45,194 bases of DNA, taken from the sequence record SRR31156797_3702. One strand, written 5' to 3'. The notes beneath the pieces are model-generated. The model ran no database searches, was not told the origin of the DNA, and worked only from the letters and a program-made list of their open reading frames with translations. A program made the position numbers and the translations under genes. Shown here piece after piece: positions 16,761 through 45,116 of this stretch; the first letter of the stretch is position 1; each line of letters begins with the position of its first letter.

Positions 16761-17333
16761 TTGATCCACTTAGCCCTTGAGCAAATTATAGCTGAGTTAA
16801 ACAGCTATTTATCTGTAAAAATATCGGAATCCGAACGGGTTATAGCCAATAATCTGCTTACCCAGGATGGCAGCCTGCAAAGTGGTATTGATGATAAAGT
16901 TATAGTATCGCTTGTAAACACCGAAGAAGAGCGTATAGCTCAAGACCCGAATATCTACCACAAGCAACCCGACGGATCGCTTAAAATTCAAAAACCTGAA
17001 ATCAAATTAAACCTGTATATTCTGTTTATCCCATATTTTCCGTCGGATTATAATGAATCACTGAAGATGATCTCGTTGGTGATTAGTTTCTTTCAAAAGA
17101 AAAACAAGTTTACACCGGCCAACACTCCGGATCTTGACCCAAAACTTAAAAACATTACAGTTGAAATGGTAACCATGAATATGGAACAAATTAATCACTT
17201 GTGGGCATCACTGGGAGCAAAATATACCCCATCGGTGCTTTACAAAATGAGGCTTGTTTCCATTGCAGATGATGAAATCGAAGGCACTGGCGAACCGATC
17301 CGGGAAATTTACATCAATGAAAACAACACATAA
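16761..17333 (+). CDS. eCIS cap / tail terminator (DUF4255, Afp16/Pvc16-like)
   Basis: IVSLVNTEEE, LNLYILF, YNESLKMISLVISFFQ, NHLWASLGAKYTPSVLYKMR; TTG start. Confidence 0.88.
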   Translation: MIHLALEQIIAELNSYLSVKISESERVIANNLLTQDGSLQSGIDDKVIVSLVNTEEERIAQDPNIYHKQPDGSLKIQKPEIKLNLYILFIPYFPSDYNESLKMISLVISFFQKKNKFTPANTPDLDPKLKNITVEMVTMNMEQINHLWASLGAKYTPSVLYKMRLVSIADDEIEGTGEPIREIYINENNT

Positions 17334-18419
17334 ATGATCATCAAATATGACATATTATTTGAAGTTGATTTAAGGCACAATTATTATACAAATGGCCTTT
17401 CACAGGATTTTATCATCCAGCCAACTGCGGAATGCAATGAACAACTTACCAGGTATGGATTGATTTTCAGAACATCGGCATTTGGATTTAAAGTGTTTGC
17501 TCCTGTGGTTCCTGAAACTGATCCGCCACAGCTTTTACGTCCGTTTGATGATGCATCGTTGAAGTTTACATTTGTAGTGGCTACAGCAAACAATAAAATC
17601 GAAACACTTACAACCTTGCCGGGATTTAAGCCGGCAGACCAAATATATTATTTCAGCAACCTGTATAATGATGTTGACGGAGATATCCGTTACCTGGGTG
17701 ACCATATCGGAGGATCACGAATCACCAACCCTGTAACGGCTATCAAAACGCCAATTCTCAACTACCGTTTTGACAATCCCGTAAGTGAAGCAGAATTTAC
17801 GCTTACGGATATGTTTGGAATAAACTATACACCAGAGTATTCGGCATTTAATTACGATGAGCAAACCTCCGGATTCCAGCATAACCTGGGAAAGGTACCC
17901 GGAATGAAAAGTGGCAGATACCTGATGTCAGACAATCATGGTGGAGCATTGCCATTTTATTTTGACAAAGATTTATACGGTAAAGACACTTTTGGTGTCA
18001 TCGAAATTTTTACCAACACCTTAGGTTTTACTGATCCCGAAAACGACCTTGTCCCTGCAGACTACAGGTTTGTGGAAAACGATAACATTACCGGCCAGGG
18101 TAGATACAGCATTGGACTTACAGCCGCAGAGCGTAAATGGATGTATATCTGCAGGAAAAATCCTGCCAACGCAGGAAATGGATTTGAAGTGAATAATCTT
18201 ACCGTTGACGGTCCGGTTGCTTTTAACCCTGCCGGAGGCGATGATATTGAAGAACGACAGATACTATCAGATGATCCTATTATACTTTCAGAAACTCCTG
18301 CCGAAGTTGAACTCAGGCATAGCGGCATAAAAATCCTTGACCTTCCTGTTCCATCTGTTGCGAGCAGGTTGGCACAACAAAATGATGAACCTTATTACCA
18401 GATGTATATATATGTTTAA
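17334..18419 (+). CDS. eCIS-associated protein, putative cap adaptor
   Basis: Abuts the DUF4255 gene and precedes the sheath; N-terminal LFEVDLRHNYY...PTAEC...GLIFR; role inferred from position. Confidence 0.5.
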   Translation: MIIKYDILFEVDLRHNYYTNGLSQDFIIQPTAECNEQLTRYGLIFRTSAFGFKVFAPVVPETDPPQLLRPFDDASLKFTFVVATANNKIETLTTLPGFKPADQIYYFSNLYNDVDGDIRYLGDHIGGSRITNPVTAIKTPILNYRFDNPVSEAEFTLTDMFGINYTPEYSAFNYDEQTSGFQHNLGKVPGMKSGRYLMSDNHGGALPFYFDKDLYGKDTFGVIEIFTNTLGFTDPENDLVPADYRFVENDNITGQGRYSIGLTAAERKWMYICRKNPANAGNGFEVNNLTVDGPVAFNPAGGDDIEERQILSDDPIILSETPAEVELRHSGIKILDLPVPSVASRLAQQNDEPYYQMYIYV

Positions 18420-18435
18420 TTAAATATTTCAGATT

Positions 18436-20415
18436 ATGAGTTACAAAACACCGGGTGTTTACGTAAAAGAAGTATCCATATTTCCTCCCTCGGTTGCCGA
18501 GGTGGAAACGGCTATCCCGGCCTTTATAGGATACACCGAAAAAGCGGAGAAAAGAGGGGAACAGCTTAGAAATGTTCCTACGAAAGTTACTTCTCTGCTT
18601 GAGTACACCACTTACTTCGGCGGCGGATACGAGGTATCTTCCGTGGATGTCCAGGTGGATGAAAGCAACAATTATGCTGTCTCCGGGGTCTCTGTCGACA
18701 CCAGATTTTACATGTACGATGCCCTTCGCACATTTTTCGACAATGGCGGCGGGCCGTGCTATATTGTTTCGGTAGGATTGTATGCAGGTGGCACGGTTGA
18801 AATGGGAGATGAAACCGACCCGGCTAACAATCCGGGGCTTCGTGTTGGATTGCACAAATTGAAAGACTATGACGAACCTACCATGATCCTGTTCCCTGAT
18901 GCACCACTTCTTGACCCGGTCAGCAATTTGTATTCTTTGCAAAAACTGGCCCTGGAACAATGCAACCGTCTACAGGACAGAGTTGGTGTGTTTGACCTGA
19001 GTGAAGCTGATGGCTGGTCTGAGGGTATTGAAGCATTCCGGAATAACGTCGGGATCAACAACCTGAAGTATGGCGCTGCCTACACGCCATGGCTCTACAC
19101 AAGCTATGCAAGGGACATCAGCTTCGAAATTTTTAAGGATAACGTGATAGACAGTGGAGACAATCCGCTGGATCTTGCTTTGCTAACATCAGACAGTTCG
19201 CTGAATGACCTGGTCAAAACGGCCAACACAACCGTGGCTGATACCGGAACCATTCAAACTACCGTTGACGGACTGCTGGGCGGTTATCCCACCATTGCCG
19301 ATCATTACAAGGAATTGAAAAATGCTTACCTGGGAACTGAAGCCGATCCCGAATTCAATGCTTTGCTTGGTTTCCTGAGGTCGGTGGCTGTTGCGCTTCC
19401 GGATTGGGCATCTTCACTTTCTGGCAAAAACCTGCTGAACGACCTTGCATCCTATGCCGACCAGGTTTTAAAAGAAGCCGTGCATGCGGTGATCGGATTT
19501 GAAAAGAATCCTGCCATACAGGCGGTTTCAGGAAAAGGCGACGGCGACACCGATACCGATTATACCGGATATGAGTTGCCATTGCCATGGCTGGCCGAAT
19601 ATGACGGAGATGATGATGACCAGGTGCTGGACGACATCGTTTCTGATGGTGAAGATTACAGCAACCTCACCACGTTGGCTATTCCTGCCATCCAAGGCAT
19701 TTTTGACAGCATAGCTTTGTTTATGCAACAAATTGCAGATGCTGGAGATACCCATGCCGAAAACGCCCAGAAAATCCTTTACGAAAACCATTCGATTATT
19801 GGCAATATCGTTAAGAACGTAGAAAAAGAGCTTTCGAAAATTCCACCAAGTGGTGCCATGGCGGGTGTTTATGCCAAAGTGGACAATGACCGTGGCGTGT
19901 GGAAGGCTCCCGCCAATGTGAGCGTGAACTCCGTTTCGGGCGTTACCGAATTTATTGATGATTACGAACAGGAAAGCCTGAACGTGGATGTGAATGCCGG
20001 AAAATCCATCAATGCCATCCGCCCTTTCACCGGAAAAGGAATTTTGGTTTGGGGTGCCCGCACCCTGGCCGGAAACGACAACGAATGGCGCTACATTCCG
20101 GTGCGTCGCTTCTTTAACATGGTGGAAGAATCCGTAAAGAAATCAACCGGCTGGGCCGTTTTTGAACCCAACGATGCCAATACCTGGAACAAAGTGCGTG
20201 GCATGATTGAAGGTTACCTATACCAAAAGTGGCAGGAAGGCGCCCTTCAGGGTGCAAAGCCTGACGAAGCATTCTTTGTGAAAGTAGGCCTGGGGCTTAC
20301 CATGACCCAGCAGGATATCCTGGAAGGTCGCATGATCGTGGAAATAGGAATGGCTGTGGTAAGGCCTGCCGAATTCATCATCCTCAAGTTTTCACACAAG
20401 ATGATCGAATCTTAA
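18436..20415 (+). CDS. Contractile tail sheath protein
   Basis: YKTPGVYVKE, ETAIPAFIGYT, FFDNGGG, PPSGAMAGVYA..D..RGVWKAPAN, VWGARTLAGNDNEWRY, VRPAEFI. Confidence 0.96.
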   Translation: MSYKTPGVYVKEVSIFPPSVAEVETAIPAFIGYTEKAEKRGEQLRNVPTKVTSLLEYTTYFGGGYEVSSVDVQVDESNNYAVSGVSVDTRFYMYDALRTFFDNGGGPCYIVSVGLYAGGTVEMGDETDPANNPGLRVGLHKLKDYDEPTMILFPDAPLLDPVSNLYSLQKLALEQCNRLQDRVGVFDLSEADGWSEGIEAFRNNVGINNLKYGAAYTPWLYTSYARDISFEIFKDNVIDSGDNPLDLALLTSDSSLNDLVKTANTTVADTGTIQTTVDGLLGGYPTIADHYKELKNAYLGTEADPEFNALLGFLRSVAVALPDWASSLSGKNLLNDLASYADQVLKEAVHAVIGFEKNPAIQAVSGKGDGDTDTDYTGYELPLPWLAEYDGDDDDQVLDDIVSDGEDYSNLTTLAIPAIQGIFDSIALFMQQIADAGDTHAENAQKILYENHSIIGNIVKNVEKELSKIPPSGAMAGVYAKVDNDRGVWKAPANVSVNSVSGVTEFIDDYEQESLNVDVNAGKSINAIRPFTGKGILVWGARTLAGNDNEWRYIPVRRFFNMVEESVKKSTGWAVFEPNDANTWNKVRGMIEGYLYQKWQEGALQGAKPDEAFFVKVGLGLTMTQQDILEGRMIVEIGMAVVRPAEFIILKFSHKMIES

Positions 20416-20463: not shown

Positions 20464-20892
20464 ATGGCTTATCCAATGACAGTATTTCACTTCCTGGTTG
20501 AGTGGGGAGGCACCCAGATCGGCTTTTCGGAAGTGACAGGATTAAACATCGAGGTTCAGCCCATCGAATATCGCCACGGCCTCAGCCCCGAATATTCGGT
20601 GATGAAAATGCCCGGCATGAAAAAGTACGGCAACATCACCCTCAAACGTGGGGTGTTTAAAGGCGACAATGAGTTTTACGACTGGTACAACCAGATCAAA
20701 CTCAACCAGCCCGAAAGGCGCGATCTCACCATCAGCCTGCTCGACGAAGAACACAATCCCGTGATGGTGTGGAAAGTGGTAAATGCATGGCCCACCAAAA
20801 TTACTTCGCCCGACCTGAAGGCTACAGGCAACGAGGTGGCCATCGAGCAGGTCGAGATCGTACATGAAGGTATTCGAATCGATAACGAGTAG
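20464..20892 (+). CDS. Tail tube protein (T4 gp19-like, Afp1-like)
   Basis: FSEVTGL, IEYRHG, KMPG, NITLKRG, AWPTK, NEVAIE. Confidence 0.95.
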   Translation: MAYPMTVFHFLVEWGGTQIGFSEVTGLNIEVQPIEYRHGLSPEYSVMKMPGMKKYGNITLKRGVFKGDNEFYDWYNQIKLNQPERRDLTISLLDEEHNPVMVWKVVNAWPTKITSPDLKATGNEVAIEQVEIVHEGIRIDNE

Positions 20893-20939: not shown

Positions 20940-21383
20940 ATGCCTGAAGATGCGCATAAAATACCTGTAGGGTTTCATTTTGCTGTGGATTTCGGACTGG
21001 GCATTTCACTGGGCGATCATTTTTTCCAGGAAGTGTCAGGGATTAGTGCGGAAGTCACTACGGAAGAGTTCCGCGAAGGCGGAGCGGATGTTAGTTACAA
21101 ACTGCCCACCGGCGTGAAATACAACAACCTGGTGCTAAAACGCGGGTTGGTAAACGACTCAAAAGTGCTCGACTGGTGCAGGGATGCAGTGGAAAATTTC
21201 AGCTTCAGCCCCTCGGAAATCACCGTGGTGCTGCTTAACGAAAACCACCTCCCATTGGCCATCTGGCAGTTTATGGGAGCCTATCCGGTAAAATGGTCGG
21301 TTACCGATTTTAAGGCAGAAGAAAATGCGCTGGTTATCGAAACGATGGAACTGGCTTATCAACGCATGCGAAAACTATTTTAA
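20940..21383 (+). CDS. Second tail tube protein (Afp5-like)
   Basis: PVGFHF, FQEVSGI, NLVLKRGL, AYPVKWSVTDF, IETMELAY. Confidence 0.92.
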   Translation: MPEDAHKIPVGFHFAVDFGLGISLGDHFFQEVSGISAEVTTEEFREGGADVSYKLPTGVKYNNLVLKRGLVNDSKVLDWCRDAVENFSFSPSEITVVLLNENHLPLAIWQFMGAYPVKWSVTDFKAEENALVIETMELAYQRMRKLF

Positions 21384-21385: not shown

Positions 21386-21547
21386 ATGCCCATTGAGATC
21401 AGAGAACTTGTGATAAAAGTTGAAGTTGGCAAGGAACGGGGTAATGCGCCCGCACAAGCAGGAGCCACAGGTGGCGACAAACAGCAAATCGTGCAGGAGT
21501 GCGTGGACCAGGTGATGGAAATGTTAAAAGAAAAAAAGGAGCGATAA
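21386..21547 (+). CDS. Small eCIS protein (DUF5908 / Afp6-like plug), not in the ORF track
   Basis: Manual translation MPIEIRELVIKVEV...IVQECVDQVMEMLKEKKER* (53 aa); fills the gap between tube 2 and the next ATG at 21548. Confidence 0.85.
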   Translation: MPIEIRELVIKVEVGKERGNAPAQAGATGGDKQQIVQECVDQVMEMLKEKKER

Positions 21548-22216
21548 ATGGCCGGACCATTGAAAAAACTGACCATTGAAGCACACCGTGAACCGGATTA
21601 TTCCGGCAGTGCTGCTGAGACTTTCACCGCGATGTTCAACCCAACGTCCTATACCCAGAAATATGAACTGGAATACCAGGACGAGCAGGGAGCCGGCACA
21701 ACGGGGAGCCCGCAGGTTTTCGGAAAAATCAAACCGCAGGATTACACCTTTGAGCTGGTATTCGACGGAACCGGGGCAATTACCGACACCAAGGATGTCC
21801 ATGAGGAGGTTGAGCATTTCCTGAAAGTCACCGGTAAGCATGATGGTGAAATCCACCGCCCGTTCTATCTCAAAATTTCGTGGAGTAAACTTACGGTAAA
21901 GTGTGTGCTCAAGTCTGCCGACATCACCTATAACCTTTTCAAGTCGAACGGTGATCCGCTCAGGGCAAAAGTCAAAGCCGTTTTTTCTGAGAACATCGAA
22001 GAAACGCTGCGTGTGGCCAAAGAACGGAAAAGCTCGCCCGATCTCACCCATGTAAAGCAGGTGCAGGATCAAACCACTCTGCCTTTGATGGCACATCGCA
22101 TCTATAAAAATCCGGCCTACTATTTTCAACTGGCTCAGGCCAACAAACTAAAACATTTCAGGAACCTGGAAACCGGGACAAACCTCACATTTCCTCCGGT
22201 TAAAAATGCCGAATAA
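21548..22216 (+). CDS. CIS tube initiator with C-terminal LysM-like domain (Afp7-like)
   Basis: LKKLTI, MFNPTSY, FDGTG, GDPLRAKV, SPDLTH...TLPLMAHRIY...LAQANKL. Confidence 0.88.
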   Translation: MAGPLKKLTIEAHREPDYSGSAAETFTAMFNPTSYTQKYELEYQDEQGAGTTGSPQVFGKIKPQDYTFELVFDGTGAITDTKDVHEEVEHFLKVTGKHDGEIHRPFYLKISWSKLTVKCVLKSADITYNLFKSNGDPLRAKVKAVFSENIEETLRVAKERKSSPDLTHVKQVQDQTTLPLMAHRIYKNPAYYFQLAQANKLKHFRNLETGTNLTFPPVKNAE

Positions 22217-23969: not shown

Positions 23970-24248
23970 ATGCCGGCAGCAGCACGAATAACTGATACAT
24001 CCACACATGGTGGCACCATTGTAGGGCCTGGCGACCCGACCGTATTGATCGGTGGAATGCCGGCGGCAGTAGCCGGCGACAATCACATTTGTTCCCTGCC
24101 ACCAAATGTGCATCAGCCTACTGTGAGCCCTTTCCCCATGGGAAGCACTACGGTACTTATCGGCGGAAAACCGGCCATCAGGGTTGGCGATGTGTGCATC
24201 TGCGGCGCATCACCGGCCGTTGGGGAACCCACAGTTTTAATTGGATAA
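23970..24248 (+). CDS. PAAR-repeat spike tip protein
   Basis: MPAAARITD..HGG, TVLIGGMPAA, GSTTVLIGGKPAIRVGD, His/Cys residues as likely Zn ligands. Confidence 0.93.
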   Translation: MPAAARITDTSTHGGTIVGPGDPTVLIGGMPAAVAGDNHICSLPPNVHQPTVSPFPMGSTTVLIGGKPAIRVGDVCICGASPAVGEPTVLIG

Positions 24249-24250: not shown

Positions 24251-24661
24251 ATGGAACAGGAACATCAATTCATAGGTACAGGATGGGGTTTCCCCCCGAC
24301 ATTCAGAAAGACTGACCAGTCTGTGCAAATGGCTTCCGGAAGGGAAGACATCGAGCAGAGCCTGGAGATTTTGCTCAGCACCCGGGTCGGCGAACGGATC
24401 ATGCAGCCCAAATACGGCTGCAACCTCGACCGCCTGATTTTTGAGCCGCTGGACTCAACATTGGTGACCTTTGTGAAAGACCTGGTTGAAACGGCAATTC
24501 TGTATTTCGAGCCACGTATCCTGGTGAATAAAATTGCTGTGGAACCAGTGCAAAACGAAGGCAAACTGGAGATCAACATCGATTATACCATCGCGGTCAC
24601 CAACACGCGATACAACTATGTTTTTCCATTTTATAAAACCGAAGGAACCGAGGTATCATAA
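24251..24661 (+). CDS. GPW/gp25-family baseplate protein (Afp9-like)
   Basis: FIGTGWGFPP, DIEQSLEILLSTRVGERIMQPKYGC, FEPRI, NYVFPFY; true start is the ATG at 24251 just after the PAAR stop. Confidence 0.92.
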   Translation: MEQEHQFIGTGWGFPPTFRKTDQSVQMASGREDIEQSLEILLSTRVGERIMQPKYGCNLDRLIFEPLDSTLVTFVKDLVETAILYFEPRILVNKIAVEPVQNEGKLEINIDYTIAVTNTRYNYVFPFYKTEGTEVS

Positions 24662-37219: not shown

Positions 37220-37220
37220 A

Positions 37221-37287: not shown

Positions 37288-37385
37288 CTCTGTGGACCTT
37301 TGTGTCTTCTCTGTGTAACTTTGCGCTATAGCCTAAAATTGCTGTTACACTAAGACACACAAAGCAGTCACAAAGTTTCGCAAAG
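37288..37385. repeat. Intergenic palindromic element of phased heptamers (REP/MITE-like)
   Basis: Left arm CTCTGTG, CTTTGTG, CTCTGTG, CTTTGCG at 37288/37298/37309/37319; right arm CACTAAG, CACAAAG, CACAAAG, CGCAAAG at 37348/37358/37369/37379. Confidence 0.8.
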
Positions 37386-37465
37386 GGGTTTTTACTCGAT
37401 TTATAATTTTCTATTTTTTTTGACAGCCTCATTTCACCATTAATATTTGAATTAAACAAGAAAAA

Positions 37466-39016: not shown

Positions 39017-40375
39017 ATGACGAATAACAAAAAACATACAGCAAATAATACGCCTGATATTGTGAAGGAGTTATCGTGGCTTGAAGATGTGCTGCGAACC
39101 CGGATTGCTTTGCACTTTGGCGAAGAGTGTGAATGCAGCCGGATTGAGGAGCTGGAGGCACCAAAACTTGTTAAACAGAATTCGGTGTATGCCAACCTGG
39201 TAAACCATTACAGGCTAAATCAGCCTGAGCGTATCACCCTGCTAATCACTTTGGCACCCCACCTGAAACCCCAGGCACTGGATATTTTTTTCAGGACAAA
39301 CGAAAAAACAAACCGGGGATTTACTGAATTTGGCGGAATCAGGGGAACAATGCACGGCGGCTTCCTGCCAACTGCCGAAACCGTTCTGTTCACGCTGGCC
39401 GGAAACGACATTGAACTCCGGATGAAGCATCAGCAACTTTTTAGCTCTGATCATATTTTTGCCAAACACAACATCCTGAAGATTGATGCACCCCCTGACA
39501 ATGAACCCATTTGGAGCGGTAGCCTGCAGCTCTCCGAAGAACTGATCGACCTGATCACCCTGGGGCAGATACGTAAGCCGGATTTCACCCGGAGTTTTCC
39601 CGCAAAGCGCATTTCCACCGAAATAACCTGGGATGAACTGGTACTCAACCATGAAACCATGGACCAGGTGCAGGAACTCATCACGTGGATTGCCCATGAA
39701 AAAACACTCATGGCCGACTGGGAACTGAGCCGCATTTTGAAACCCGGATACAAATGCTTGTTTCACGGCCCTTCGGGCACCGGGAAAACGCTCACGGCCA
39801 GCCTCATCGGGAAGCAGGTCGGGAAGGATGTTTACCGGATCGACCTGTCATCGGTGGTTTCGAAGTACATCGGGGAAACCGAAAAAAACCTGGAAAAAAT
39901 TTTCAACAAAGCGTCCCAATTGGATTGTATCCTGTTCTTTGATGAAGCCGATGCGTTGTTCGGGAAGCGTACCAACATCAGCGATGCCCACGACCGGTAT
40001 GCCAACCAGGAGGTGTCGTACCTGTTGCAGCGTGTGGAAGATTTCCCCGGGCTGGTTATCCTGGCCTCCAATTTTAAGAGTAACATGGACGATGCTTTTC
40101 TGCGAAGGTTTCAATCCATCATCCACTTCCCCATGCCGGAAGCAAAGGAAAGAAAACGCTTGTGGGAGCAATCTTTTTCCAAAAAAACAAAACTGGAAAA
40201 AGGCATGGATTTCTCGGAAATATCCAAAAAATACAAACTGGCCGGGGGGTCAATTATCAATGTCGTCAGGTATGCCTCCCTGATGTCGGTATCGAGAAAG
40301 TCCAATGTGATTAAACAAAGTGATGTTGTAAAAGGAATACGCCGCGAATTTCAAAAGGAAGGAAAGACGATCTGA
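39017..40375 (+). CDS. eCIS AAA+ ATPase (Afp15/Pvc15-like)
   Basis: Walker A GPSGTGKT, SKYIGETEKNL, Walker B LFFDEADALFGKR, DRYANQEVSYLLQR, DDAFLRRF. Confidence 0.95.
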   Translation: MTNNKKHTANNTPDIVKELSWLEDVLRTRIALHFGEECECSRIEELEAPKLVKQNSVYANLVNHYRLNQPERITLLITLAPHLKPQALDIFFRTNEKTNRGFTEFGGIRGTMHGGFLPTAETVLFTLAGNDIELRMKHQQLFSSDHIFAKHNILKIDAPPDNEPIWSGSLQLSEELIDLITLGQIRKPDFTRSFPAKRISTEITWDELVLNHETMDQVQELITWIAHEKTLMADWELSRILKPGYKCLFHGPSGTGKTLTASLIGKQVGKDVYRIDLSSVVSKYIGETEKNLEKIFNKASQLDCILFFDEADALFGKRTNISDAHDRYANQEVSYLLQRVEDFPGLVILASNFKSNMDDAFLRRFQSIIHFPMPEAKERKRLWEQSFSKKTKLEKGMDFSEISKKYKLAGGSIINVVRYASLMSVSRKSNVIKQSDVVKGIRREFQKEGKTI

Positions 40376-41181
40376 TGGGAAAAACCAGAAAATACAGAAG
40401 CTCCAACAGCTCATCCTGTAAACGAAAAATCGGCAACAATGCTGTGGTTGAAGAGTTGAAATACCGGAGCGTTGCTTCCGCACAGCAGGCAGCCATTCAA
40501 GAGAAGGATGGAAAAGCCAAGGAAAGCATCCGGATGCCACATTTGCGCAGTACCGCCGGCAGCATTTCGAATATGGGCAATTGTACCTGGGGCATCACAT
40601 CACCAGACAAACTTGGTGTTAAGACGCAGGTAGTGAAAGGCGGCAATAACTGGAAACTGGACGTAACGAACGTGAACTCCGTGATTAGAAGCCACAGCAG
40701 GTTGCTGTCCGGACAAAAAGAACCTGTCCCCGGAAATAACACCACCAAAACCAACTGGAAGGACCAGGTGAACGAGCTGAACAGATTGGGGTCCTGTGCA
40801 GGAAAGTGGTACATGATCAGAGCTGTGCGTGCCCACGAAAACATGCACGTAAAAGAGTGGAAAGACAATTTTGAAACCGATTGGGCAACACAACGCACAA
40901 ACATTGAAACACTTACTATTCCAGCGTCCGGTAATACCGAAAATTCAGATAAGGCACATAAAGCTCTCAGGGCCATGCCGGCTTTCAACAGTGCGAGAGA
41001 GACAACCAATGCCAGTGGCAACTATCCCACATTCTGGGGACTGGCAGATCCCAATGCGCAAACCAATGCTGCAGAGCAAAAGATCGTGGACCCGCGCATC
41101 GAATGGATTTGCAAATATGCCAAATGGAACAAGTGGAACCCGGCATCCAACGCAGTTTGTACGAACAAGAAAATAACATAA
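40375..41181 (+). CDS. Hypothetical protein with HExxH motif; candidate eCIS cargo
   Basis: TGATG coupling to the ATPase stop; basic Ser-rich N-terminus; AHENMH at 40831-40848. Confidence 0.6.
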   Translation: MGKTRKYRSSNSSSCKRKIGNNAVVEELKYRSVASAQQAAIQEKDGKAKESIRMPHLRSTAGSISNMGNCTWGITSPDKLGVKTQVVKGGNNWKLDVTNVNSVIRSHSRLLSGQKEPVPGNNTTKTNWKDQVNELNRLGSCAGKWYMIRAVRAHENMHVKEWKDNFETDWATQRTNIETLTIPASGNTENSDKAHKALRAMPAFNSARETTNASGNYPTFWGLADPNAQTNAAEQKIVDPRIEWICKYAKWNKWNPASNAVCTNKKIT

Positions 41182-41188: not shown

Positions 41189-43501
41189 ATGACTTCTAAA
41201 ACTTCGGAAACCAAAAGTATCAGCAGGCCAGTATCATCTGTTCCTGTTCAGGCCAAACTGAATGTAAATAAGCCCGGCGACCGCTACGAGGTGGAAGCAG
41301 ACCGGGCTGCAGCTTCGGTGATGAGCCACATAGAAGGAAAATCGAAAAACACGGATGCGGGACCGGCCAGCCTTGATATTTCCCGATTGCAAAATGGAGG
41401 TGGCCAAAATCAGCAGCAACGGTGTGGTGAAGAGGAAGAGATGCAAATGAAGATACAACGCCAGGCTGGGGAAGAGGAGGAGGAAATGCAGATGAAAGTC
41501 CAGCGTCAACCTGAGGAGGAGGAAGAGGAATTACAAATGAAAGTGCAACGACAAAGCGAGGAGGACGAAGAAGAGGAGGTTATACAGCCAAAAGTGCAAC
41601 GACAGGCGGAGGAAGAGGAAGAAGAGATGCAGATGAAGGTGCAGCGCTGTGGTGAGGAAGAAGAAGCCATACAATCAAAGGAAGATGGTTCGGGATCTTC
41701 AAACAACGGAACAACTCCGCAGGTGGAGAGACGGATAAACCAACGAAAAGGAGTAGGATCAACCCTCGATAGCAATGTAAAAGGAGAAATGGAAAGTGGA
41801 TTTGGAGCCGACTTCAGCAGTGTACGGGTTCACAACGATGCGGAAGCTTCCAAAATATCGTCAGATTTAAATGCACAGGCTTTCGCCACCGGAAACGATA
41901 TATATTTTAATGAAGGAAAATACCAGCCCGATACCTCATCGGGAAAATCCCTGCTGGCACACGAACTCACACATGTGGTACAGCAGAATGGGGGCTCTAA
42001 CGAAATCGCCCGAAAATCGGCGGCCGGAGAACTTGTGGTGGAAAAACCCGTGCACGACACTGCCGGAAACTCACCGCAGTACAAACACATTTCAGGACAA
42101 ACTGAAACTGAAATTCAGCGCGAAGTGGGAGACGTACCAGATGCCGGGCCAACAGGAGATACTGCCGATGCAGGCCCGTCTGATAGTGGTGGAGATTCGG
42201 GTGAAACCTCACCCTCAGATGATGGCGGTCCTCCACCCGACCCTGCTTCCCCCACTCTGAACATTACACCGGGAAATACCCTGACCCGCGGCGAAACCCT
42301 CAAGGCAACCATCATGTTTCAGCCCAACGGCGATGAAACCTACAATGTTACAGCATGGCAATTTTCAACTGCCGATCATGGAAACATCAGCCGGCCACAG
42401 GGAGAAAGTGAGTTCCAAAACAAGTGGGATGGTAAAATGGCGGTTTCAGGAACTCTGACAGTTACTTTCAGGATTACGCCGGAAGGCGGCACTGAAGGGC
42501 CCGAACAAACGCTTGTTGAAGAAATCACCGTAGAAGACCGCACCGGAGATGATTGGGAGTCGGAGGTGGATGAACAACCCGAAACGCCATATAGCAGCTC
42601 TCCTTCACCACCAACCAGATTTCCTCACCTGGGCCATCACAGTGCAAACGTTACCAATCCCGATCCCGATCTGGAAACAATCGATGGAGGCCCCAACAAA
42701 GATCTCCGTTTTGTAAATACACTCGCTGCAGGAACCTATACATCACAAGGACAGATACATCCTGACCTGCTCAACAACACCAGTGATTTTTACACCTTCC
42801 ACCTGAATGCCGGAATTCTGTATATCGTTGAAGGAAACACCCGAACTGAAGTCCCCAGAGCAGAATACAGTGACCTTGAAATAGGCGAAGACAGTATAAG
42901 TTTTGATGTTCCTGATTGGGAGGCATTTTACAAAAGTCATGATATTGCCCGTGTGGTTGCTTATACCGAGGATGAAGAGAATACTTTTGTTGTGCCTGAA
43001 ACAGCATGGGAACTGGATGCCAATGAAGAGGATGCCGGGGCAAACATTACAGATGAAACCGTGGTGAGAAACGGCCTGGGTATCGGACAGGATGAGGGCT
43101 ATGGTTTCAGGTTGGAGTTTCCCAAAAGCTTTGAAGCCACCAAACTGATGCAGGCTCCCGACATTCTCACCGGCACCCGTAGTCACGAATATGCTCATGG
43201 AACACATAGCCACCGGGCAAATTTCCTGAAAATGATGCGTGCATTGGATCCGGAAAAGAAAATTGAAAATAAGGTGTCTTCCTCCCAGAGTACAGTAAAT
43301 TTCAGCAGATTACTGCGTGACTGGCGTGACGAAATCCTGGAACCCAATCATGAAATTGTGGACGAGGCAACATCCGAAGAGCAGGAAGAATTTACAGCAG
43401 TAAGCGGCGAAACCATGGCAGGCATAAACACAGACCCGGATACAGGTGCAAACCTGGGGGCCGTATGGAATATTTCTTCCAACCAGGCCATGGGCAACTA
43501 A
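41189..43501 (+). CDS. DUF4157 (eCIS core domain) protein with acidic repeats and uncharacterised C-terminal domain
   Basis: QAKLNVNKPGDRYEVEADRAA; FGADFSSVRVH...AQAFATGNDIYF..GKYQP....GKSLLAHELTHVVQQ. Confidence 0.9.
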   Translation: MTSKTSETKSISRPVSSVPVQAKLNVNKPGDRYEVEADRAAASVMSHIEGKSKNTDAGPASLDISRLQNGGGQNQQQRCGEEEEMQMKIQRQAGEEEEEMQMKVQRQPEEEEEELQMKVQRQSEEDEEEEVIQPKVQRQAEEEEEEMQMKVQRCGEEEEAIQSKEDGSGSSNNGTTPQVERRINQRKGVGSTLDSNVKGEMESGFGADFSSVRVHNDAEASKISSDLNAQAFATGNDIYFNEGKYQPDTSSGKSLLAHELTHVVQQNGGSNEIARKSAAGELVVEKPVHDTAGNSPQYKHISGQTETEIQREVGDVPDAGPTGDTADAGPSDSGGDSGETSPSDDGGPPPDPASPTLNITPGNTLTRGETLKATIMFQPNGDETYNVTAWQFSTADHGNISRPQGESEFQNKWDGKMAVSGTLTVTFRITPEGGTEGPEQTLVEEITVEDRTGDDWESEVDEQPETPYSSSPSPPTRFPHLGHHSANVTNPDPDLETIDGGPNKDLRFVNTLAAGTYTSQGQIHPDLLNNTSDFYTFHLNAGILYIVEGNTRTEVPRAEYSDLEIGEDSISFDVPDWEAFYKSHDIARVVAYTEDEENTFVVPETAWELDANEEDAGANITDETVVRNGLGIGQDEGYGFRLEFPKSFEATKLMQAPDILTGTRSHEYAHGTHSHRANFLKMMRALDPEKKIENKVSSSQSTVNFSRLLRDWRDEILEPNHEIVDEATSEEQEEFTAVSGETMAGINTDPDTGANLGAVWNISSNQAMGN
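41417..41679 (+). repeat. Six degenerate intragenic repeats (QRxxEEEEEMQMK; 39-51 nt)
   Basis: QRCGEEEEMQMKI / QRQAGEEEEEMQMKV / QRQPEEEEEELQMKV / QRQSEEDEEEEVIQPKV / QRQAEEEEEEMQMKV / QRCGEEEEAIQSK. Confidence 0.9.
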
Positions 43502-43613
43502 GTTTTGTTGCTAAAATCAACTCATGTTAGCATAAAGGAAATTACTAATGGATAAAAATATATTTTCGGCTGGTCCTTCACACCCCAACAGGACTTGAGT
43601 AAGTGAGATATAT

Positions 43614-45116
43614 ATGAAAGTATCAGCATCAAAAAGAGGTGGGAAGCGTACTGCAGGAAAAGCGGCAGCCCATGGTAAGGAGGGAGGGGACGGATCACGG
43701 AAAACCCTGATCTCAACTGCAGAAAATACGGAGGCCGAAAACAAGGGTGCATGTAAAGATACCAACTTCCCGCCCGGCGAAATATGGTTTGCCCATCCCG
43801 GCCTTTCATATATTCGTGCCGGCGAATCGCTGATGGGCTATGGTGCCAGGGGCAACGGCGTTTCATTGGTTCAGCAGGCCATTGTTGCCTGGGGCTGCGA
43901 TGAGGGAATCCACAACCTGCTGCCTGAATTTGGAGTAGACGGCATTTTTGCAAGCGAAACCCTTTCGGCCGTTAAGACATTCCAGAATGGGCACTTTATA
44001 AAAACAGACGGTATTGTTGGCCCCATTACAATGGGAAAACTCGACGCATTAATCGGTGGTGGCCAGCTTATTTGTCCTTCGGGGACGGCTCCGGCCTCTT
44101 TTGTTGCAGCCTCGGGAACCCAAACATCACGATCGGCAGCCTGCACACCCCCAGGAACTGTTCCACTGGGCAAAGGTTGTCCGTGTGGGTGCCCTTTACC
44201 CACACCATCCGGAGCCAACCCATCGGTGGGCGATATCTGCGAGGTGCAAAAAAATGCCACCTCAGTTGATGACAGCAACAGGCTCTTTTGTCCTTCCGAT
44301 GGCGACCCCGTAAAAATCCTGGCCAAAGAACCGGCCAATTTCGTTAAGGTGGAAATGCTGAAGCACAAAAACAAGGAAGTTCATATCAACCAGGACTTTT
44401 TAAAAAATTGTACCAAACCATCCATCCAGCCTGAAACCATTCTCCCGTCACCGGACGGTTCGGGAAAAAACCGTGTGGAAGTCGGCGTTGGGGAAAAGGT
44501 CAATTTCAGGGCCGGCTTAAAAGGCGACTGGTCGGTAACAAAAGGTACTCCGATAACACAAAATAACGTTGATCCTTTTGTATGGACGGCGCCAAACAGA
44601 GCTGATAACGTTACGGTTAAATTCAAGATAGGAAGTTTCACAGACACTGTCGTTATGGATGTAACCGAGCCTGATAAAATCACCGCAGACAAACTGAGTG
44701 AAATCAATCCGCCCGCAGGAAAAGTAGGTGCAGGGATGAAGTTGCGCTTCAATTACCACCCCAAAAATGTGTCGTTCGGGAATGTGGAGTCGAAGGAAGT
44801 ATCCGGGCCGGCATCGCATATTAAAGGCTACTACGAACAATTCTCAAAAAAAAGCCTGGCACACAATTCGGGCGACAACTTTTTTGATATCAGGAAAGAC
44901 AATAAGGATTCAGTGGTGGATACGGCCAGTGAATTCCGGAGCACAAAGCCATTTAAGTTTGGAACTTATGCCTGGGTTATTCCCAATAATTTCAAGGTGA
45001 AATCTGAAACGGGAGATGGCAAAAAATTCACTGATGTAACCCAGTTTTTCCACATGGTAAACAACACCGGAAAAATGCGTGTGCTTAAGGCAAGCGAAGA
45101 AGTTGAGAACCCTTAA
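43614..45116 (+). CDS. Peptidoglycan-binding domain protein with uncharacterised C-terminal domain; candidate cargo or release factor
   Basis: GARGNGVSLVQQAI...GVDGIFASETLSAVKTFQ....IKTDGIVGPITMGKL is PG_binding_1-like; Cys/Pro-rich linker; beta-rich C-terminus. Confidence 0.75.
   Translation: MKVSASKRGGKRTAGKAAAHGKEGGDGSRKTLISTAENTEAENKGACKDTNFPPGEIWFAHPGLSYIRAGESLMGYGARGNGVSLVQQAIVAWGCDEGIHNLLPEFGVDGIFASETLSAVKTFQNGHFIKTDGIVGPITMGKLDALIGGGQLICPSGTAPASFVAASGTQTSRSAACTPPGTVPLGKGCPCGCPLPTPSGANPSVGDICEVQKNATSVDDSNRLFCPSDGDPVKILAKEPANFVKVEMLKHKNKEVHINQDFLKNCTKPSIQPETILPSPDGSGKNRVEVGVGEKVNFRAGLKGDWSVTKGTPITQNNVDPFVWTAPNRADNVTVKFKIGSFTDTVVMDVTEPDKITADKLSEINPPAGKVGAGMKLRFNYHPKNVSFGNVESKEVSGPASHIKGYYEQFSKKSLAHNSGDNFFDIRKDNKDSVVDTASEFRSTKPFKFGTYAWVIPNNFKVKSETGDGKKFTDVTQFFHMVNNTGKMRVLKASEEVENP

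What the first reader, a model, noticed from the sequence alone, without database searches (positions are those of the whole stretch)
16761..45116. Apparently complete 28-kb Bacteroidota eCIS locus with an elaborated baseplate and its own cargo cassette
Seen: 18 co-oriented, mostly abutting or overlapping genes with no visible frameshifts, covering every headless contractile-tail component plus the AAA+ ATPase and a DUF4157 gene. Established: this gene set defines Afp/PVC/MAC/AlgoCIS/BIS-type injection systems. It differs from prophage (no head or packaging genes) and from T6SS-i/iii (no membrane complex or ClpV). Inference: a functional single-sheath injection machine whose target-recognition modules and payloads I cannot match to characterised systems, so its target (eukaryote, bacterium or self) is open.
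Basis: partly seen in the sequence, partly recalled or inferred. Interest (0 to 1): 0.9.

Follow-up and report, generated by a model that had tools for sequence, protein, structure and literature searches.

The report
AlgoCIS-type injection system gene cluster
An intact 18-gene cluster for a phage-tail-like protein-injecting particle of the already described AlgoCIS/Anabaena type, in an uncultured Bacteroidales-like bacterium, with three uncharacterised payload genes whose domain families are often joined to cell-wall-binding modules elsewhere.

Summary
Window 16761-45116 (+) carries 18 co-oriented, intact genes of a contractile injection system (CIS): cap, cap adaptor, one sheath, two tubes, plug, tube initiator, spike, PAAR, gp25, Cis11, Cis12, Cis19-type fibre, CIS tape measure, AAA+ ATPase and three 3' cargo-like genes.

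The "elaborated baseplate" is not unmatched. The closest solved relatives of most structural parts compared with the PDB are AlgoCIS (Algoriphagus) and the Anabaena thylakoid-anchored CIS. The features described for clade Ib are present by sequence: Cis16B-type cap adaptor, DUF5908 plug, cage-bearing Cis11 and the Alg19/Cis19 fibre N-terminus. Local differences are a ~190-aa insert in the Cis11 cage region and a longer Cis12.

A Lentimicrobiaceae MAG has the same gene order (sheath 78% identical) but lacks two of the three cargo genes. All three cargo C-terminal domains recur behind DUF4157 in other genomes. One is a zincin-like HExxH family with no fold match. One is PG_binding_1 + SH3-like + Ig-like + beta-sandwich.

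Best reading: a free, AlgoCIS-like particle loaded by its AAA+ ATPase, probably aimed at diderm bacteria. Extracellular release, target and expression are not shown. Verdict: new member of a known kind, moderate interest.

The parts
16761..17333 (+). Cap / tail terminator (Cis16A/Alg16A type, 190 aa)
   Evidence: Pfam Pvc16_N 1.5e-33. PDB: All3327 of the Anabaena cap complex 7b5i 8.9e-25; AlgoCIS cap protein 7adz 2.5e-19.
17334..18419 (+). Cap adaptor (Cis16B type, 361 aa)
   Evidence: No Pfam match even at E<=10. Single sequence hits All3326 of 7b5i at 1.1e-4. A 4-sequence profile (A5) hits it at 3.1e-15 over 2-273 / 2-324. 7B5I is the cap complex of Cis16A, Cis16B, Cis1 and Cis2 (PMC8894136, passages). 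AlgoCIS Alg16B was not hit at E<=1.
18436..20415 (+). Single contractile sheath (659 aa)
   Evidence: Phage_sheath_1C 4.6e-14. PDB ranking: AlgoCIS sheath 7adz 1.1e-130, Anabaena All3325 2.1e-117, 9r9h 1.3e-105, Afp3 8.4e-67, Pvc3 2.7e-66, T4 gp18 about 5e-7.
20464..20892 (+). Inner tube protein (Afp1 type, 142 aa)
   Evidence: Phage_T4_gp19 6.5e-51. 96% identical to the G001 homologue.
20940..21383 (+). Second tube-family protein (Afp5 type, 147 aa)
   Evidence: Phage_T4_gp19 5.9e-40.
21386..21547 (+). Spike plug (Afp6/Alg6 type, 53 aa)
   Evidence: DUF5908 1.9e-20 over the whole protein. Role of Alg6 taken from PMC8894135 passages.
21548..22216 (+). Tube initiator (Afp7 type, 222 aa)
   Evidence: CIS_tube 1.7e-50, residues 5-156.
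22219..23967 (+). Central spike (VgrG/Afp8 type, 582 aa)
   Evidence: Phage_base_V 4.9e-21; Phage_GPD 2.6e-06.
23970..24248 (+). PAAR spike tip (92 aa)
   Evidence: PAAR_motif 3.9e-20.
24251..24661 (+). gp25-like sheath initiator (136 aa from ATG 24251; the ORF is open from 24089)
   Evidence: GPW_gp25 8.8e-26. First Met of the frame is at 24251.
24661..28857 (+). Cis11/Alg11 baseplate wedge (gp6-like) with spike-cage region, 1398 aa; residues ~507-700 are a lineage-specific insert
   Evidence: PDB: All3317 1.1e-154, Alg11 (7aeb_G) 1.3e-139, Pvc11 1.4e-35, Afp11 1.8e-25. Aligned stretches to Alg11: 1-84/1-89, 235-527/96-392, 706-971/402-638, 1007-1388/647-1030. To All3317: 8-506, 700-900, 1004-1395.
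28845..32474 (+). Cis12/Alg12 baseplate wedge (gp6/gp7-like), 1209 aa
   Evidence: PDB: All3315 6.4e-129, Alg12 1e-117, SalCis12 6.9e-37, Pvc12 1.7e-25, Afp12 1.3e-22.
32498..37219 (+). Cis19/Alg19-type tail fibre, 1573 aa: conserved N-terminal ~500 aa, divergent remainder with one Ig-like domain
   Evidence: PDB: 9wt0 chain a (1443 aa, deposited with Alg12) 9.5e-36 over 8-500 / 13-489; All3314 (= Cis19) 1.1e-29. Big_9 at 1185-1262. 58% identical to the G001 homologue.
37220..37465 (+). Largest intergenic gap of the cluster (246 nt), with a short inverted repeat just after the fibre stop
   Evidence: Sequence printed; a TAACTTTG match lies at 37316. No function is claimed.
37466..39010 (+). 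CIS tape measure protein (514 aa)
   Evidence: CIS_TMP 2.4e-115 over the whole length. No tblastn match in 50,697 phage records.
39017..40375 (+). AAA+ ATPase (Afp15/Alg15 type, 452 aa)
   Evidence: AAA 4e-29, residues 247-372. GPSGTGKT and FFDEAD stretches are visible in the translation; calling them Walker A and B is my reading.
40375..41181 (+). Cargo candidate 1 (268 aa): basic disordered leader (1-48) + zincin-like HExxH domain of a Pfam-less family
   Evidence: 24 homologues, 3 with PF13699. H154, E155, H158, D225 and E234 invariant in A1. AF2 mean pLDDT 76, residues 1-48 below 50. No fold match: Foldseek 0 hits at E<=0.001, VIA best Z 4.0. Family of 422 representative clusters. Of 102 scanned, 15 carry eCIS_core, 7 PG_binding_1 and 1 PG_binding_3.
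41189..43501 (+). Cargo candidate 2 (770 aa): leader, five acidic 14-15-aa repeats, DUF4157/eCIS_core (193-269, HELTH), Pro/Asp/Gly-rich linker, conserved 410-aa C-terminal domain with a His-rich motif (HEYAHGTHSH)
   Evidence: eCIS_core 1.8e-31. Repeats. C-terminal domain has 36 homologues, 33 with PF13699. Invariant residues in that domain include H666, E667 and H675 (A3 positions 307, 308, 316). Orthologue in G001, 53% identical. No PDB, Pfam or Atlas match for the C-terminal domain.
43614..45116 (+). Cargo or accessory candidate 3 (500 aa): basic leader, PG_binding_1 (79-143), Cys-rich linker, SH3-like (about 200-268), Ig-like (268-353), beta-sandwich (354-500)
   Evidence: PG_binding_1 1.2e-08. 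AF2: residues 195-500 mostly pLDDT above 90. VIA: SH3/KOW/SH3b-type matches Z 6.6-8.0 and Ig-like matches Z 7-8.6. 76 homologues, 45 with PF13699, 3 with OmpA PF00691.

Best explanation
The cluster encodes a complete-looking contractile injection particle of the clade Ib (AlgoCIS / Anabaena CIS) architecture. By homology to those solved machines, it would be built as follows. A tube of gp19-family subunits is measured by the CIS tape measure, wrapped by one sheath protein, and closed by a two-layer cap (Cis16A-type cap plus Cis16B-type adaptor). It stands on a baseplate of gp25, Cis11 and Cis12, whose Cis11 extensions form a cage around a VgrG/PAAR spike plugged by a DUF5908 protein. Trimeric Cis19/Alg19-type fibres hang from Cis12. 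The AAA+ ATPase would thread cargo with disordered N-terminal leaders into the tube lumen. The three 3' genes are that cargo: a leader-only zincin-like protein, a DUF4157 protein with a His-rich C-terminal domain, and a peptidoglycan-binding multi-domain protein. No protein has a membrane-spanning segment, so I read it as a free particle released by lysis that binds a target through the variable fibre C-terminus. Its most likely target is a diderm bacterium, with cargo delivered into the periplasm where peptidoglycan-binding modules make sense. Shown here: gene content, intactness, homology to solved parts, and the domain make-up of the cargo families. Inferred: assembly, loading, release, target and effect.
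For: Identity of parts: Pfam; PDB sequence searches. AlgoCIS or Anabaena chains rank first for cap, adaptor, sheath, Cis11, Cis12 and fibre, and Afp/PVC score far lower for the sheath, Cis11 and Cis12 (they were not matched by the cap, adaptor or fibre). Intactness and conservation: same gene order in G001 from cap to DUF4157 gene, 39-96% identity, long proteins in single full-length segments. Not a phage. Flanks of two relatives hold no head or packaging genes. No membrane anchor: no 19-residue window with Kyte-Doolittle mean above 1.6 in any of the 18 proteins, and no gene between Cis11 and Cis12, which overlap by 13 nt. Cargo status: all three lie at the 3' end after the ATPase. N-termini are modelled as disordered or are low-complexity repeats. 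Their C-terminal domains recur behind PF13699 in 3 of 24, 33 of 36 and 45 of 76 homologues. For the g16-type family, 15 of 102 representatives carry eCIS_core. Loading model: AlgoCIS cargo needs a disordered N-terminal domain and the AAA+ Alg15, while DUF4157 is dispensable (bioRxiv 10.64898/2026.05.27.728243, passages). Bacterial target: PG_binding_1 and an SH3-like domain in the last gene. PG_binding_1 or PG_binding_3 occurs in 8 of 102 g16-type family members. OmpA-type domains occur in 3 of 76 g18-type homologues. AlgoCIS binds Echinicola pacifica by Alg19 and its tube ends in the periplasm (bioRxiv 10.1101/2025.10.08.681156, section 7 read). Some eCIS toxins are antibacterial, and one peptidoglycan hydrolase is more toxic in the periplasm (PMC8213781, passages). 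Weak hint of expression: contigs of four metatranscriptome libraries (X3, X4, X7, X11) cover 26-29 of 30 bins of 16761-36760 at about 93% identity, with pieces up to 6412 nt.
Against: No particle, release, target or toxicity was tested. The closest relatives by E-value for cap, adaptor, Cis11 and Cis12 are the Anabaena parts, and that system is not extracellular (PMC8894136). No lysis gene lies in the window, and the 3' flank is missing. None of the three cargo C-terminal domains has a recognised catalytic fold. The g18 model is made only of binding-type folds, so it may not be a toxin. The g16 zincin reading rests on a motif and conservation, not on a fold match. Peptidoglycan-binding modules would equally suit lysis of the producer. 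The RNA-library contigs are from relatives about 7% divergent, and the tool warns that DNA can be present in such libraries; no silent control stretch was laid. AlgoCIS Alg16B was not detected by the adaptor profile. Clade Ib placement rests on ranking of PDB hits, not on a tree.
Confidence: 0.6

Rival explanations
1. The same machine works from inside the cell. It could be anchored to a membrane like the Amoebophilus T6SS-iv or the Anabaena thylakoid-anchored CIS, or free in the cytoplasm and firing on stress-induced death like Streptomyces CIS. It would not be a released particle.
For: Anabaena chains are the best PDB matches for cap, adaptor, Cis11 and Cis12. Clade Ib contains eCIS and T6SS-like modes among close relatives (PMC8894135 passages). 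No lysis cassette is seen in the window.
Against: The Anabaena anchor is Cis13 with a transmembrane helix plus a Cis12 extension. Here there is no Cis13 gene and no TM-like segment in any protein. A long Alg19-type fibre with a divergent C-terminus is present. A relative's locus has an Amidase_2 gene directly after the g18 homologue, which would suit release.
Confidence: 0.2
2. It is a released eCIS aimed at eukaryotes (protists or invertebrates), like MACs, Afp and PVC. The peptidoglycan-binding protein would serve only for the producer's lysis.
For: The earliest characterised eCIS mediate interactions with invertebrate hosts (PMC8213781 abstract). The cargo C-terminal domains have no assigned activity. 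An Amidase_2 gene follows the g18 homologue in L020, so g18 might belong to a lysis module.
Against: g18-type C-terminal domains sit behind DUF4157 in 45 of 76 homologues, as expected of cargo rather than lysis proteins. The g16-type family is also joined to peptidoglycan-binding domains. The closest characterised released system, AlgoCIS, binds and punctures a bacterium.
Confidence: 0.18
3. It is a defective prophage tail or an R-type tailocin that kills by membrane depolarisation without cargo.
For: The tail-like gene set has distant phage homologues: 315 phage records match the last ~190 residues of the sheath at 39% identity or less among the rows listed, and under 60% in all.
Against: CIS-specific families are present (CIS_TMP, CIS_tube, Pvc16_N, DUF5908, eCIS_core), along with an Afp15-type ATPase. 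The tape measure has no phage match. No phage record covers 80% of the sheath. No head genes lie in the window's 5' flank or in the flanks of two relatives.
Confidence: 0.02

Closest known systems
AlgoCIS of Algoriphagus machipongonensis (clade Ib eCIS; PDB 7adz, 7aeb and others; PMC8894135)
   Same: Single large sheath (best PDB hit, 1.1e-130). Short Pvc16_N cap followed by an extra gene. DUF5908 plug. Cis11 with the region aligned to Alg11 residues 96-392 and 402-638, which spans its cage domain IV (278-643). Alg12 homologue. Fibre N-terminal ~500 aa matching 9wt0 chain a. AAA+ ATPase. DUF4157 cargo with a disordered N-terminus and two HExxH motifs (paper passages).
   Different: By bit score the sheath is only about 40% identical: 440 bits, against 465-530 bits for 43-47% identical sheaths. 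This is an estimate. Cis11 is 348 aa longer, with an unaligned insert at about 507-700. Cis12 is 276 aa longer. The fibre beyond residue 500 is unmatched. Alg16B is not detected by sequence. Two of the three cargo genes lack DUF4157. Homology of the cargo C-terminal domains to Cgo1 and Cgo2 could not be tested because those sequences were not at hand.
Anabaena sp. PCC 7120 thylakoid-anchored CIS (PDB 7b5h, 7b5i; PMC8894136)
   Same: Best or second-best PDB matches for every large structural part: All3327 cap 8.9e-25, All3326 adaptor 3.1e-15 (profile), All3325 sheath 2.1e-117, All3317 Cis11 1.1e-154, All3315 Cis12 6.4e-129, All3314 Cis19 1.1e-29.
   Different: No Cis13 gene and no transmembrane helix. 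The host is not a cyanobacterium, so a thylakoid anchor is not expected.
Afp (Serratia) and PVC (Photorhabdus), the founding eCIS
   Same: Same core gene set and order logic: tube, sheath, Afp5-12, tape measure, ATPase and cap, with toxins at the 3' end.
   Different: One sheath gene instead of three. Two-protein cap. Much larger Afp11 and Afp12 homologues (E-values only 1e-22 to 1e-35). An Alg19-type instead of an Afp13-type fibre. DUF4157-type cargo.
Bacteroidales injection systems (BIS) of gut Bacteroides/Parabacteroides (PMC7394362)
   Same: Bacteroidales host. An 18-gene cluster bounded by a DUF4255 (Pvc16_N) gene and an ATPase, with a DUF4157 gene (paper passages).
   Different: The first BIS architecture described there has two sheath genes; here there is one. 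No sequence comparison with BIS proteins was made here. The nearest relatives here are MAGs titled Bacteroidales and Lentimicrobiaceae.
MACs (Pseudoalteromonas) and Amoebophilus T6SS-iv
   Same: Reported to share the plug and cage features of clade Ib (PMC8894135 passages).
   Different: Not compared by sequence here. MACs form arrays and act on eukaryotes. T6SS-iv is membrane-anchored. Neither property can be read from this sequence.

Membership tests
eCIS / Afp-PVC-like contractile injection systems | Contractile sheath plus gp19-family inner tube | tested here: met
   Phage_sheath_1C 4.6e-14 and Phage_T4_gp19 6.5e-51 and 5.9e-40. The sheath hits AlgoCIS, Anabaena, Afp and PVC sheaths at 1e-130 to 1e-40.
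eCIS / Afp-PVC-like contractile injection systems | Baseplate and spike set: Afp7 tube initiator, VgrG-like spike, PAAR, gp25, gp6-like Afp11, Afp12 | tested here: met
   CIS_tube, Phage_base_V/GPD, PAAR_motif and GPW_gp25. Afp11/Pvc11 and Afp12/Pvc12 homology at 1e-22 to 1e-35.
eCIS / Afp-PVC-like contractile injection systems | CIS-type tape measure, Afp15-type AAA+ ATPase, Pvc16_N (DUF4255) cap | tested here: met
   CIS_TMP 2.4e-115, AAA 4e-29, Pvc16_N 1.5e-33.
eCIS / Afp-PVC-like contractile injection systems | DUF4157 (eCIS_core) gene associated with 3' toxin genes | tested here: met
   eCIS_core 1.8e-31 in the 770-aa gene. It is flanked by two genes whose domains are fused to eCIS_core elsewhere.
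eCIS / Afp-PVC-like contractile injection systems | No capsid, portal or terminase genes next to the tail genes | tested here: inconclusive
   None in the 16.7 kb upstream or within the cluster. The window ends 78 nt after the last gene. Relatives G001 and L020 show none downstream.
eCIS / Afp-PVC-like contractile injection systems | Particles released from the cell and acting extracellularly | not testable with these tools
   Needs microscopy and fractionation. Sequence only shows the absence of TM-like segments.
Clade Ib CIS (AlgoCIS / Anabaena CIS architecture) | Second cap protein (cap adaptor, Alg16B/Cis16B) encoded next to a short cap | tested here: met
   The profile of the 361-aa gene and 3 homologues hits All3326 of cap complex 7b5i at 3.1e-15. 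The 190-aa cap hits All3327 and the AlgoCIS cap. Alg16B itself was not hit at E<=1.
Clade Ib CIS (AlgoCIS / Anabaena CIS architecture) | Plug protein (Alg6/Cis6) | tested here: met
   DUF5908 1.9e-20. Afp and PVC also have an Afp6 homologue, so this feature is shared, not exclusive.
Clade Ib CIS (AlgoCIS / Anabaena CIS architecture) | Cis11/Alg11 carrying the spike-cage domain | tested here: met
   Query 235-527 and 706-971 align to Alg11 96-392 and 402-638. The cage domain IV is residues 278-643 in the paper. This is by sequence only; the cage itself was not modelled.
Clade Ib CIS (AlgoCIS / Anabaena CIS architecture) | Alg19/Cis19-type fibre or crown protein | tested here: met
   N-terminal 500 aa match 9wt0 chain a (9.5e-36) and All3314 (1.1e-29). 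That 9wt0 chain a is Alg19 is my inference from its co-deposition with Alg12.
Clade Ib CIS (AlgoCIS / Anabaena CIS architecture) | Placement of the sheath inside clade Ib in a sheath phylogeny (dbeCIS scheme) | not tested
   Only the ranking of PDB hits was used.
Thylakoid-anchored CIS (tCIS) | Cis13 fibre-like protein with a C-terminal transmembrane helix | tested here: not met
   No gene lies between Cis11 and Cis12, which overlap by 13 nt. No TM-like window in any of the 18 proteins.
T6SS-iv (Amoebophilus type) | Anchoring of the baseplate to the inner membrane and contact-dependent firing | not testable with these tools
   No sequence criterion is given in the papers read.
BIS, first architecture (B. 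cellulosilyticus type) | Two sheath genes | tested here: not met
   Only one of the 18 genes scanned matched a sheath family. The feature is as described in PMC7394362.
Prophage tail / R-type tailocin | Phage-type tape measure and sheath with close phage relatives; head or lysis genes nearby | tested here: not met
   The tape measure has no match in 50,697 phage records. Sheath matches cover at most 30% of the query at 39% identity or less among the 8 rows listed; none of the 315 records covers 80% or reaches 60% identity.

The most novel reading that the evidence does not exclude
This is an antibacterial, periplasm-delivering eCIS whose payloads are directed at the cell wall. One payload is a Pfam-less zincin-like family: the g16 type, with 422 representative clusters and HExxH plus conserved Asp and Glu. 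In other genomes it is tethered to PG_binding domains and to DUF4157. Another is a PG_binding_1 + SH3-like + Ig-like protein. The leader-only forms of two cargo genes would be natural examples of a short basic leader replacing the whole leader-DUF4157 module for AAA+-dependent loading. The ~190-aa insert in the Cis11 cage would be a lineage-specific receptor or trigger module.
Probability: 0.3. Interest if true: 0.55.

Novelty: new member of a known kind. Interest (0 to 1): 0.35.

Why it matters
It extends the structurally solved AlgoCIS/Anabaena architecture to a Bacteroidales (Lentimicrobiaceae-like) lineage. Near relatives of that lineage (about 93% identical) appear in contigs of metatranscriptome libraries labelled marine and hypersaline lake.

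It also offers a natural test of recent cargo-loading results: the disordered leader is needed and DUF4157 is dispensable. Here the same locus carries one DUF4157 cargo and two leader-only cargoes, whose domains are DUF4157-fused in other genomes.

The two cargo domain families tied to peptidoglycan-binding modules are candidates for new cell-wall-active proteins. They also give a concrete, testable guess at the target class (diderm bacteria), which is unknown for most eCIS.

None of this changes the concept of what such loci are.

Tried and rejected
- **Whole genome:** none is held for the window, so the 3' flank and the rest of the genome could not be read.
- **Rfam:** at gathering thresholds over the window, 0 matches.
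- **Promoters and terminators:** the sigma-70 and terminator scan of 15200-17000 gave 5 promoter-like sites against 6.6 expected, so nothing usable. The pattern TANNTTTG (a Bacteroidetes -7-like consensus, recalled, not from a call) has 30 matches against 35.8 expected and none just upstream of 16761. No promoter is claimed.
- **Family libraries:** NCBIfam and PHROGs gave only weak partial baseplate hits for Cis11/Cis12 and endolysin-family hits confined to the PG-binding segment of g18. Pfam at E<=1 on seven sub-regions (Cis11 inserts, Cis12 ends, fibre remainder, g17 C-terminal domain) gave nothing above curated cut-offs.
- **PDB profile searches:** the g17 C-terminal (A3) and g18 (A2) alignments found nothing meaningful.
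- **Fold searches:** for the g16 model, Foldseek gave 0 matches at E<=0.001 with TM about 0.1, and VIA-wide gave a best Z of 4.0. This does not show a new fold. For g18, Foldseek gave only generic tandem-Ig matches with TM 0.2 or less. The 354-500 beta-sandwich got no specific match, but was not folded alone.
- **ESM Atlas:** best score 0.84 for the g18 C-terminus and no usable hit for the g17 C-terminal domain.
- **Metagenome scans:** the scan with g18 alone found nothing. The second scan, with alignment A4, found one locus, L020.
- **G001 genome:** g16 and g18 were not found with these queries (and at E<=1e-5). The genome may be incomplete.
- **Shared neighbourhood:** upstream window genes were not found on the G001 contig pieces, L001 or L003.
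- **RNA-library contigs:** little or no cover of bins 34103-35436 in three of four runs. This shows nothing by itself.
- **Earlier findings of this scan:** nothing by place, sequence or words.
- **Not run:** Supplementary tables of the papers were closed; they may list this lineage or these cargo domains.

Full report
**Observation.** The six-frame ORF list shows an unbroken run of + strand genes from 16761 to 45116. Pfam names 14 of the 18:
- Pvc16_N cap (16761-17333)
- sheath (18436-20415)
- two gp19-family tubes (20464-20892, 20940-21383)
- a 53-aa DUF5908 protein (21386-21547)
- CIS_tube (21548-22216)
- a VgrG-like spike (22219-23967)
- PAAR (23970-24248)
- gp25 (ORF from 24089; first ATG at 24251)
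- CIS tape measure (37466-39010)
- AAA ATPase (39017-40375)
- an eCIS_core/DUF4157 protein (41189-43501)
- a PG_binding_1 protein (43614-45116)
- a Big_9 domain in the 1573-aa protein (32498-37219)

Four genes had no Pfam family: 17334-18419, 24661-28857, 28845-32474 and 40375-41181. Junctions are tight: 15 of 17 lie between -13 and +48 nt, and the exceptions are 246 nt before the tape measure and 112 nt before the last gene.

The 16.7 kb upstream encode ordinary chromosomal functions and no phage head or packaging families. The window stops 78 nt after the last gene, and no whole genome is held, so the 3' boundary is unknown.

**What the unnamed large genes are.** Sequence searches against all PDB chains settle this.
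- The 1398-aa protein matches Anabaena All3317 (1.1e-154) and AlgoCIS Alg11 (1.3e-139), and far more weakly Pvc11 and Afp11.
- The 1209-aa protein matches All3315 (6.4e-129) and Alg12 (1e-117).
- The first 500 residues of the 1573-aa protein match chain a of 9wt0 (9.5e-36), a 1443-aa protein deposited with Alg12, and All3314 (1.1e-29). All3314 is Cis19 according to the Anabaena paper (PMC8894136, passages). That 9wt0 chain a is Alg19 is my inference.
- The 361-aa gene after the cap hits All3326 of entry 7b5i weakly on its own (1.1e-4). As a profile of four homologues it hits clearly (3.1e-15, 2-273 against 2-324).
- The 190-aa cap hits All3327 of the same entry and the AlgoCIS cap. Entry 7B5I is the cap complex of Cis16A, Cis16B, Cis1 and Cis2. 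So the 361-aa gene is a Cis16B-type cap adaptor.
- The sheath ranks AlgoCIS (1.1e-130) above Anabaena (2.1e-117), 9r9h (1.3e-105), Afp/PVC (about 1e-66) and T4 gp18 (about 5e-7).

The features that the AlgoCIS paper describes as special to its clade Ib structure are a cap adaptor, a plug, a spike cage formed by an Alg11 extension, and Alg19 fibres (PMC8894135, passages). All have sequence counterparts here. The region of Alg11 that includes its cage domain (residues 278-643 in the paper) aligns to residues 235-527 and 706-971 of the window protein. The "elaborated baseplate" is thus the known clade Ib baseplate.

**What is particular to this lineage.**
- About 190 residues (roughly 507-700) inside the cage region align to neither Alg11 nor All3317.
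- A segment at 85-234 is shared with All3317 but not Alg11.
- Cis12 is 276 residues longer than Alg12. Its best aligned stretch starts about 300 residues later than in both solved chains.
- The fibre beyond residue 500 has only one Ig-like Pfam hit.

**Relatives and intactness.** The nearest loci in one-genome-per-species collections are MAGs titled Bacteroidales and Lentimicrobiaceae, with sheath 76-78% identical. The Lentimicrobiaceae contig (G001 C13) has the same order from cap to the DUF4157 gene. Identities are cap 64%, adaptor 54%, sheath 78%, tube 96%, second tube 81%, plug 60%, initiator 86%, spike 73%, PAAR 88%, gp25 74%, Cis11 66%, Cis12 69%, fibre 58%, tape measure 39%, ATPase 74% and DUF4157 protein 53%. 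The long proteins align in single full-length segments. That argues for intact genes under selection in both genomes.

In G001 the cluster ends with the DUF4157 gene, facing a convergent 2107-aa Ig-rich protein with a T9SS sorting domain. A helix-turn-helix gene and a DNA methylase follow, with no head genes. The 268-aa and 500-aa genes of the window were not found in G001 with these queries.

In a sample of 301 genomes of G001's order, 26 have a sheath relative at E<=1e-20. After G001, the next best is 54% identical. Against 50,697 phage records the sheath matches only over its last ~190 residues, at 39% identity or less among the rows listed. The tape measure has no match at all.

**The cargo cassette: gene 16.** Gene 16 (268 aa) has a basic N-terminus modelled as disordered (residues 1-48, pLDDT below 50) and a confident core. 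Its 24 word-indexed homologues include seven short forms with the same basic leader. Longer forms carry N-terminal extensions, three of them with PF13699. H154, E155, H158, D225 and E234 are invariant.

An exhaustive profile search found 422 representative clusters. In most of them the domain sits at the extreme C-terminus of proteins of 100 to 2437 residues. HExxH occurs in 144 of the 145 newly listed representatives, though in members that also carry DUF4157 the motif may be that domain's own. In the wider alignment the motif's second His is invariant, and the first His, the Glu, a downstream Asp and a downstream Glu are nearly invariant. Of 102 members scanned, 15 carry eCIS_core, 7 PG_binding_1 and 1 PG_binding_3. 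Others are Ig- or lectin-rich giants. The model has no convincing structural neighbour. I read it as a zinc-dependent hydrolase domain of polymorphic-toxin style, plausibly acting on the cell wall. The motif and the partners are shown; the activity is inferred.

**The cargo cassette: gene 17.** Gene 17 (770 aa) has, in order:
- a leader with a stretch also seen at the start of two DUF4157-bearing g18 homologues (P0027, P0030)
- five acidic 14-15-aa repeats
- DUF4157 with HELTH
- a Pro/Asp/Gly-rich linker
- a 410-aa C-terminal domain with invariant His and Glu residues in an HEYAHGTHSH stretch

Of 36 homologues of that domain, 33 carry PF13699. It has no Pfam, PDB or Atlas match. AlgoCIS Cgo1 is likewise described with a disordered N-terminus, DUF4157 and two HExxH motifs.

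**The cargo cassette: gene 18.** Gene 18 (500 aa) has a basic leader, PG_binding_1 and a Cys-rich linker. Behind these the AlphaFold model is very confident for residues 195-500. It shows an SH3-like domain, whose matches include SH3b-type modules of cell-wall hydrolases at Z 6.6-8.0. An Ig-like domain (Z 7-8.6) and a beta-sandwich without a specific match follow. No catalytic fold was recognised. Of 76 homologues, 45 carry PF13699, 3 carry an OmpA-type domain, and one 710-aa protein is DUF4157 + PG_binding_1 + the same C-terminus at 60% identity.

Judging by equal longest-contig lengths, g16 and g17 homologues seem to share contigs in four cases, and g17 and g18 homologues in one. This is a hint, not a verified linkage.

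In the one related metagenome locus recovered (L020), the g18 homologue follows a 1402-aa DUF4157 protein with an endonuclease-like C-terminus. An Amidase_2 gene follows it directly, and again there are no head genes.

**Mechanism.** From the solved relatives and recent AlgoCIS work, the most likely working is as follows. The particle assembles in the cytoplasm on the baseplate, and the tape measure sets its length. The AAA+ ATPase loads cargo bearing disordered N-terminal leaders into the tube, with DUF4157 dispensable for loading (bioRxiv 10.64898/2026.05.27.728243, passages). The cap and adaptor close the tube and sheath. Fibres bind a target, the baseplate opens, the sheath contracts and the tube is driven through the envelope.

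For AlgoCIS, the fibres bind Echinicola pacifica and the fired tube ends in the periplasm (bioRxiv 10.1101/2025.10.08.681156, section 7). The peptidoglycan-binding and SH3-like modules in gene 18, and the peptidoglycan-binding partners of the gene 16 family, fit delivery into a bacterial periplasm. They would also fit lysis of the producer for release, which the Amidase_2 neighbour in L020 keeps open. No protein of the cluster has a TM-like segment, and the Anabaena anchor protein Cis13 has no counterpart. I therefore prefer a free, released particle. Clade Ib, however, contains released and cell-bound systems among close relatives, and sequence cannot decide.

**Expression.** One DNA run holds all sampled words of 16761-26760 and may be the source. 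Contigs from four metatranscriptome libraries (labelled marine and hypersaline lake) cover 26-29 of 30 bins of 16761-36760 at about 93% identity. Pieces reach 6412, 4220 and 3649 nt and span several genes. This shows that close relatives are present in RNA libraries. The tool warns that DNA may be carried over, and no silent control was laid, so it is only a weak hint of transcription.

**Comparison and verdict.** The locus meets the tested gene-content criteria of an Afp/PVC-like CIS and the sequence-testable features of the clade Ib architecture. It fails the tCIS criterion (Cis13 with a TM helix) and the two-sheath BIS architecture. It is far from identical to any characterised system: the sheath scores 440 bits against AlgoCIS, roughly 40% identity by comparison with the scores. 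Its cargo domains are uncharacterised.

That makes it a new member of a known kind, and its particulars are variations on a published theme:
- a cage insert
- a longer Cis12
- a divergent fibre
- a cargo trio with two leader-only forms and cell-wall-binding modules

eCIS loci were reported in 1,249 genomes (PMC8213781 abstract), and related sheaths occur in 26 of 301 sampled genomes of this order. Interest is moderate. The most useful lead is the cargo: two Pfam-less families linked to DUF4157 and to peptidoglycan-binding modules, testable by periplasmic expression.

Noticed in passing
window 37220-37465: The only long gap inside the structural part (246 nt) follows the fibre gene. It begins with a short inverted repeat (AACCTGA ... 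TCAGGTT) and holds a TAACTTTG match at 37316. In G001 the fibre and tape-measure genes overlap instead. It might mark a second transcription unit for tape measure, ATPase and cargo.
   Followed up: partly
window 15802-16760: About 960 bp upstream of the cap gene hold no ORF of 60 aa or more and no Rfam match. No convincing promoter pattern was found.
   Followed up: partly
window 1-45194 (composition): G+C is 0.45-0.50 across the cluster from about 18 kb on, against 0.38-0.44 in most of the upstream flank. The flanking genes differ from those of the G001 locus. This is compatible with a mobile or rearranged island but was not tested.
   Followed up: no
L020 6057-6821 and 94-4302: In a related metagenome contig, an Amidase_2 gene directly follows the g18 homologue. 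The preceding 1402-aa DUF4157 protein ends in an Endonuclea_NS_2-like region (E 1.3e-4, below the curated cut-off).
   Followed up: partly
proteins P0275, P0152, P0161, P0158: The g16-type HExxH domain also ends giant proteins (716-2437 aa) rich in Ig, Big_2, lectin-like and CarboxypepD_reg domains that carry no DUF4157. So the domain is not restricted to CIS cargo.
   Followed up: partly
window 20901 and 36356: Contigs of all four RNA libraries carry one extra T after 20901, which lies between the two tube genes. Two of them lack 6 nt at 36356, in frame within the fibre gene. These are strain differences of the ~93% identical relatives.
   Followed up: no
window 9913-10323 and 11460-11708: A PIN_3 domain gene and, 1.1 kb further, a short ORF matching only the C-terminal half of a PIN profile. 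These are possibly toxin-antitoxin remnants.
   Followed up: no
window 2350-4956 (- strand): An 868-aa fusion of CheB methylesterase, CheR methyltransferase and a PAS_10 domain lies next to a hybrid PAS histidine kinase/receiver (118-2250).
   Followed up: no
L006 2904-9227 (G001 contig C13): A 2107-aa Ig-rich protein with a T9SS C-terminal sorting domain lies convergent to the end of the CIS cluster in the Lentimicrobiaceae MAG.
   Followed up: no
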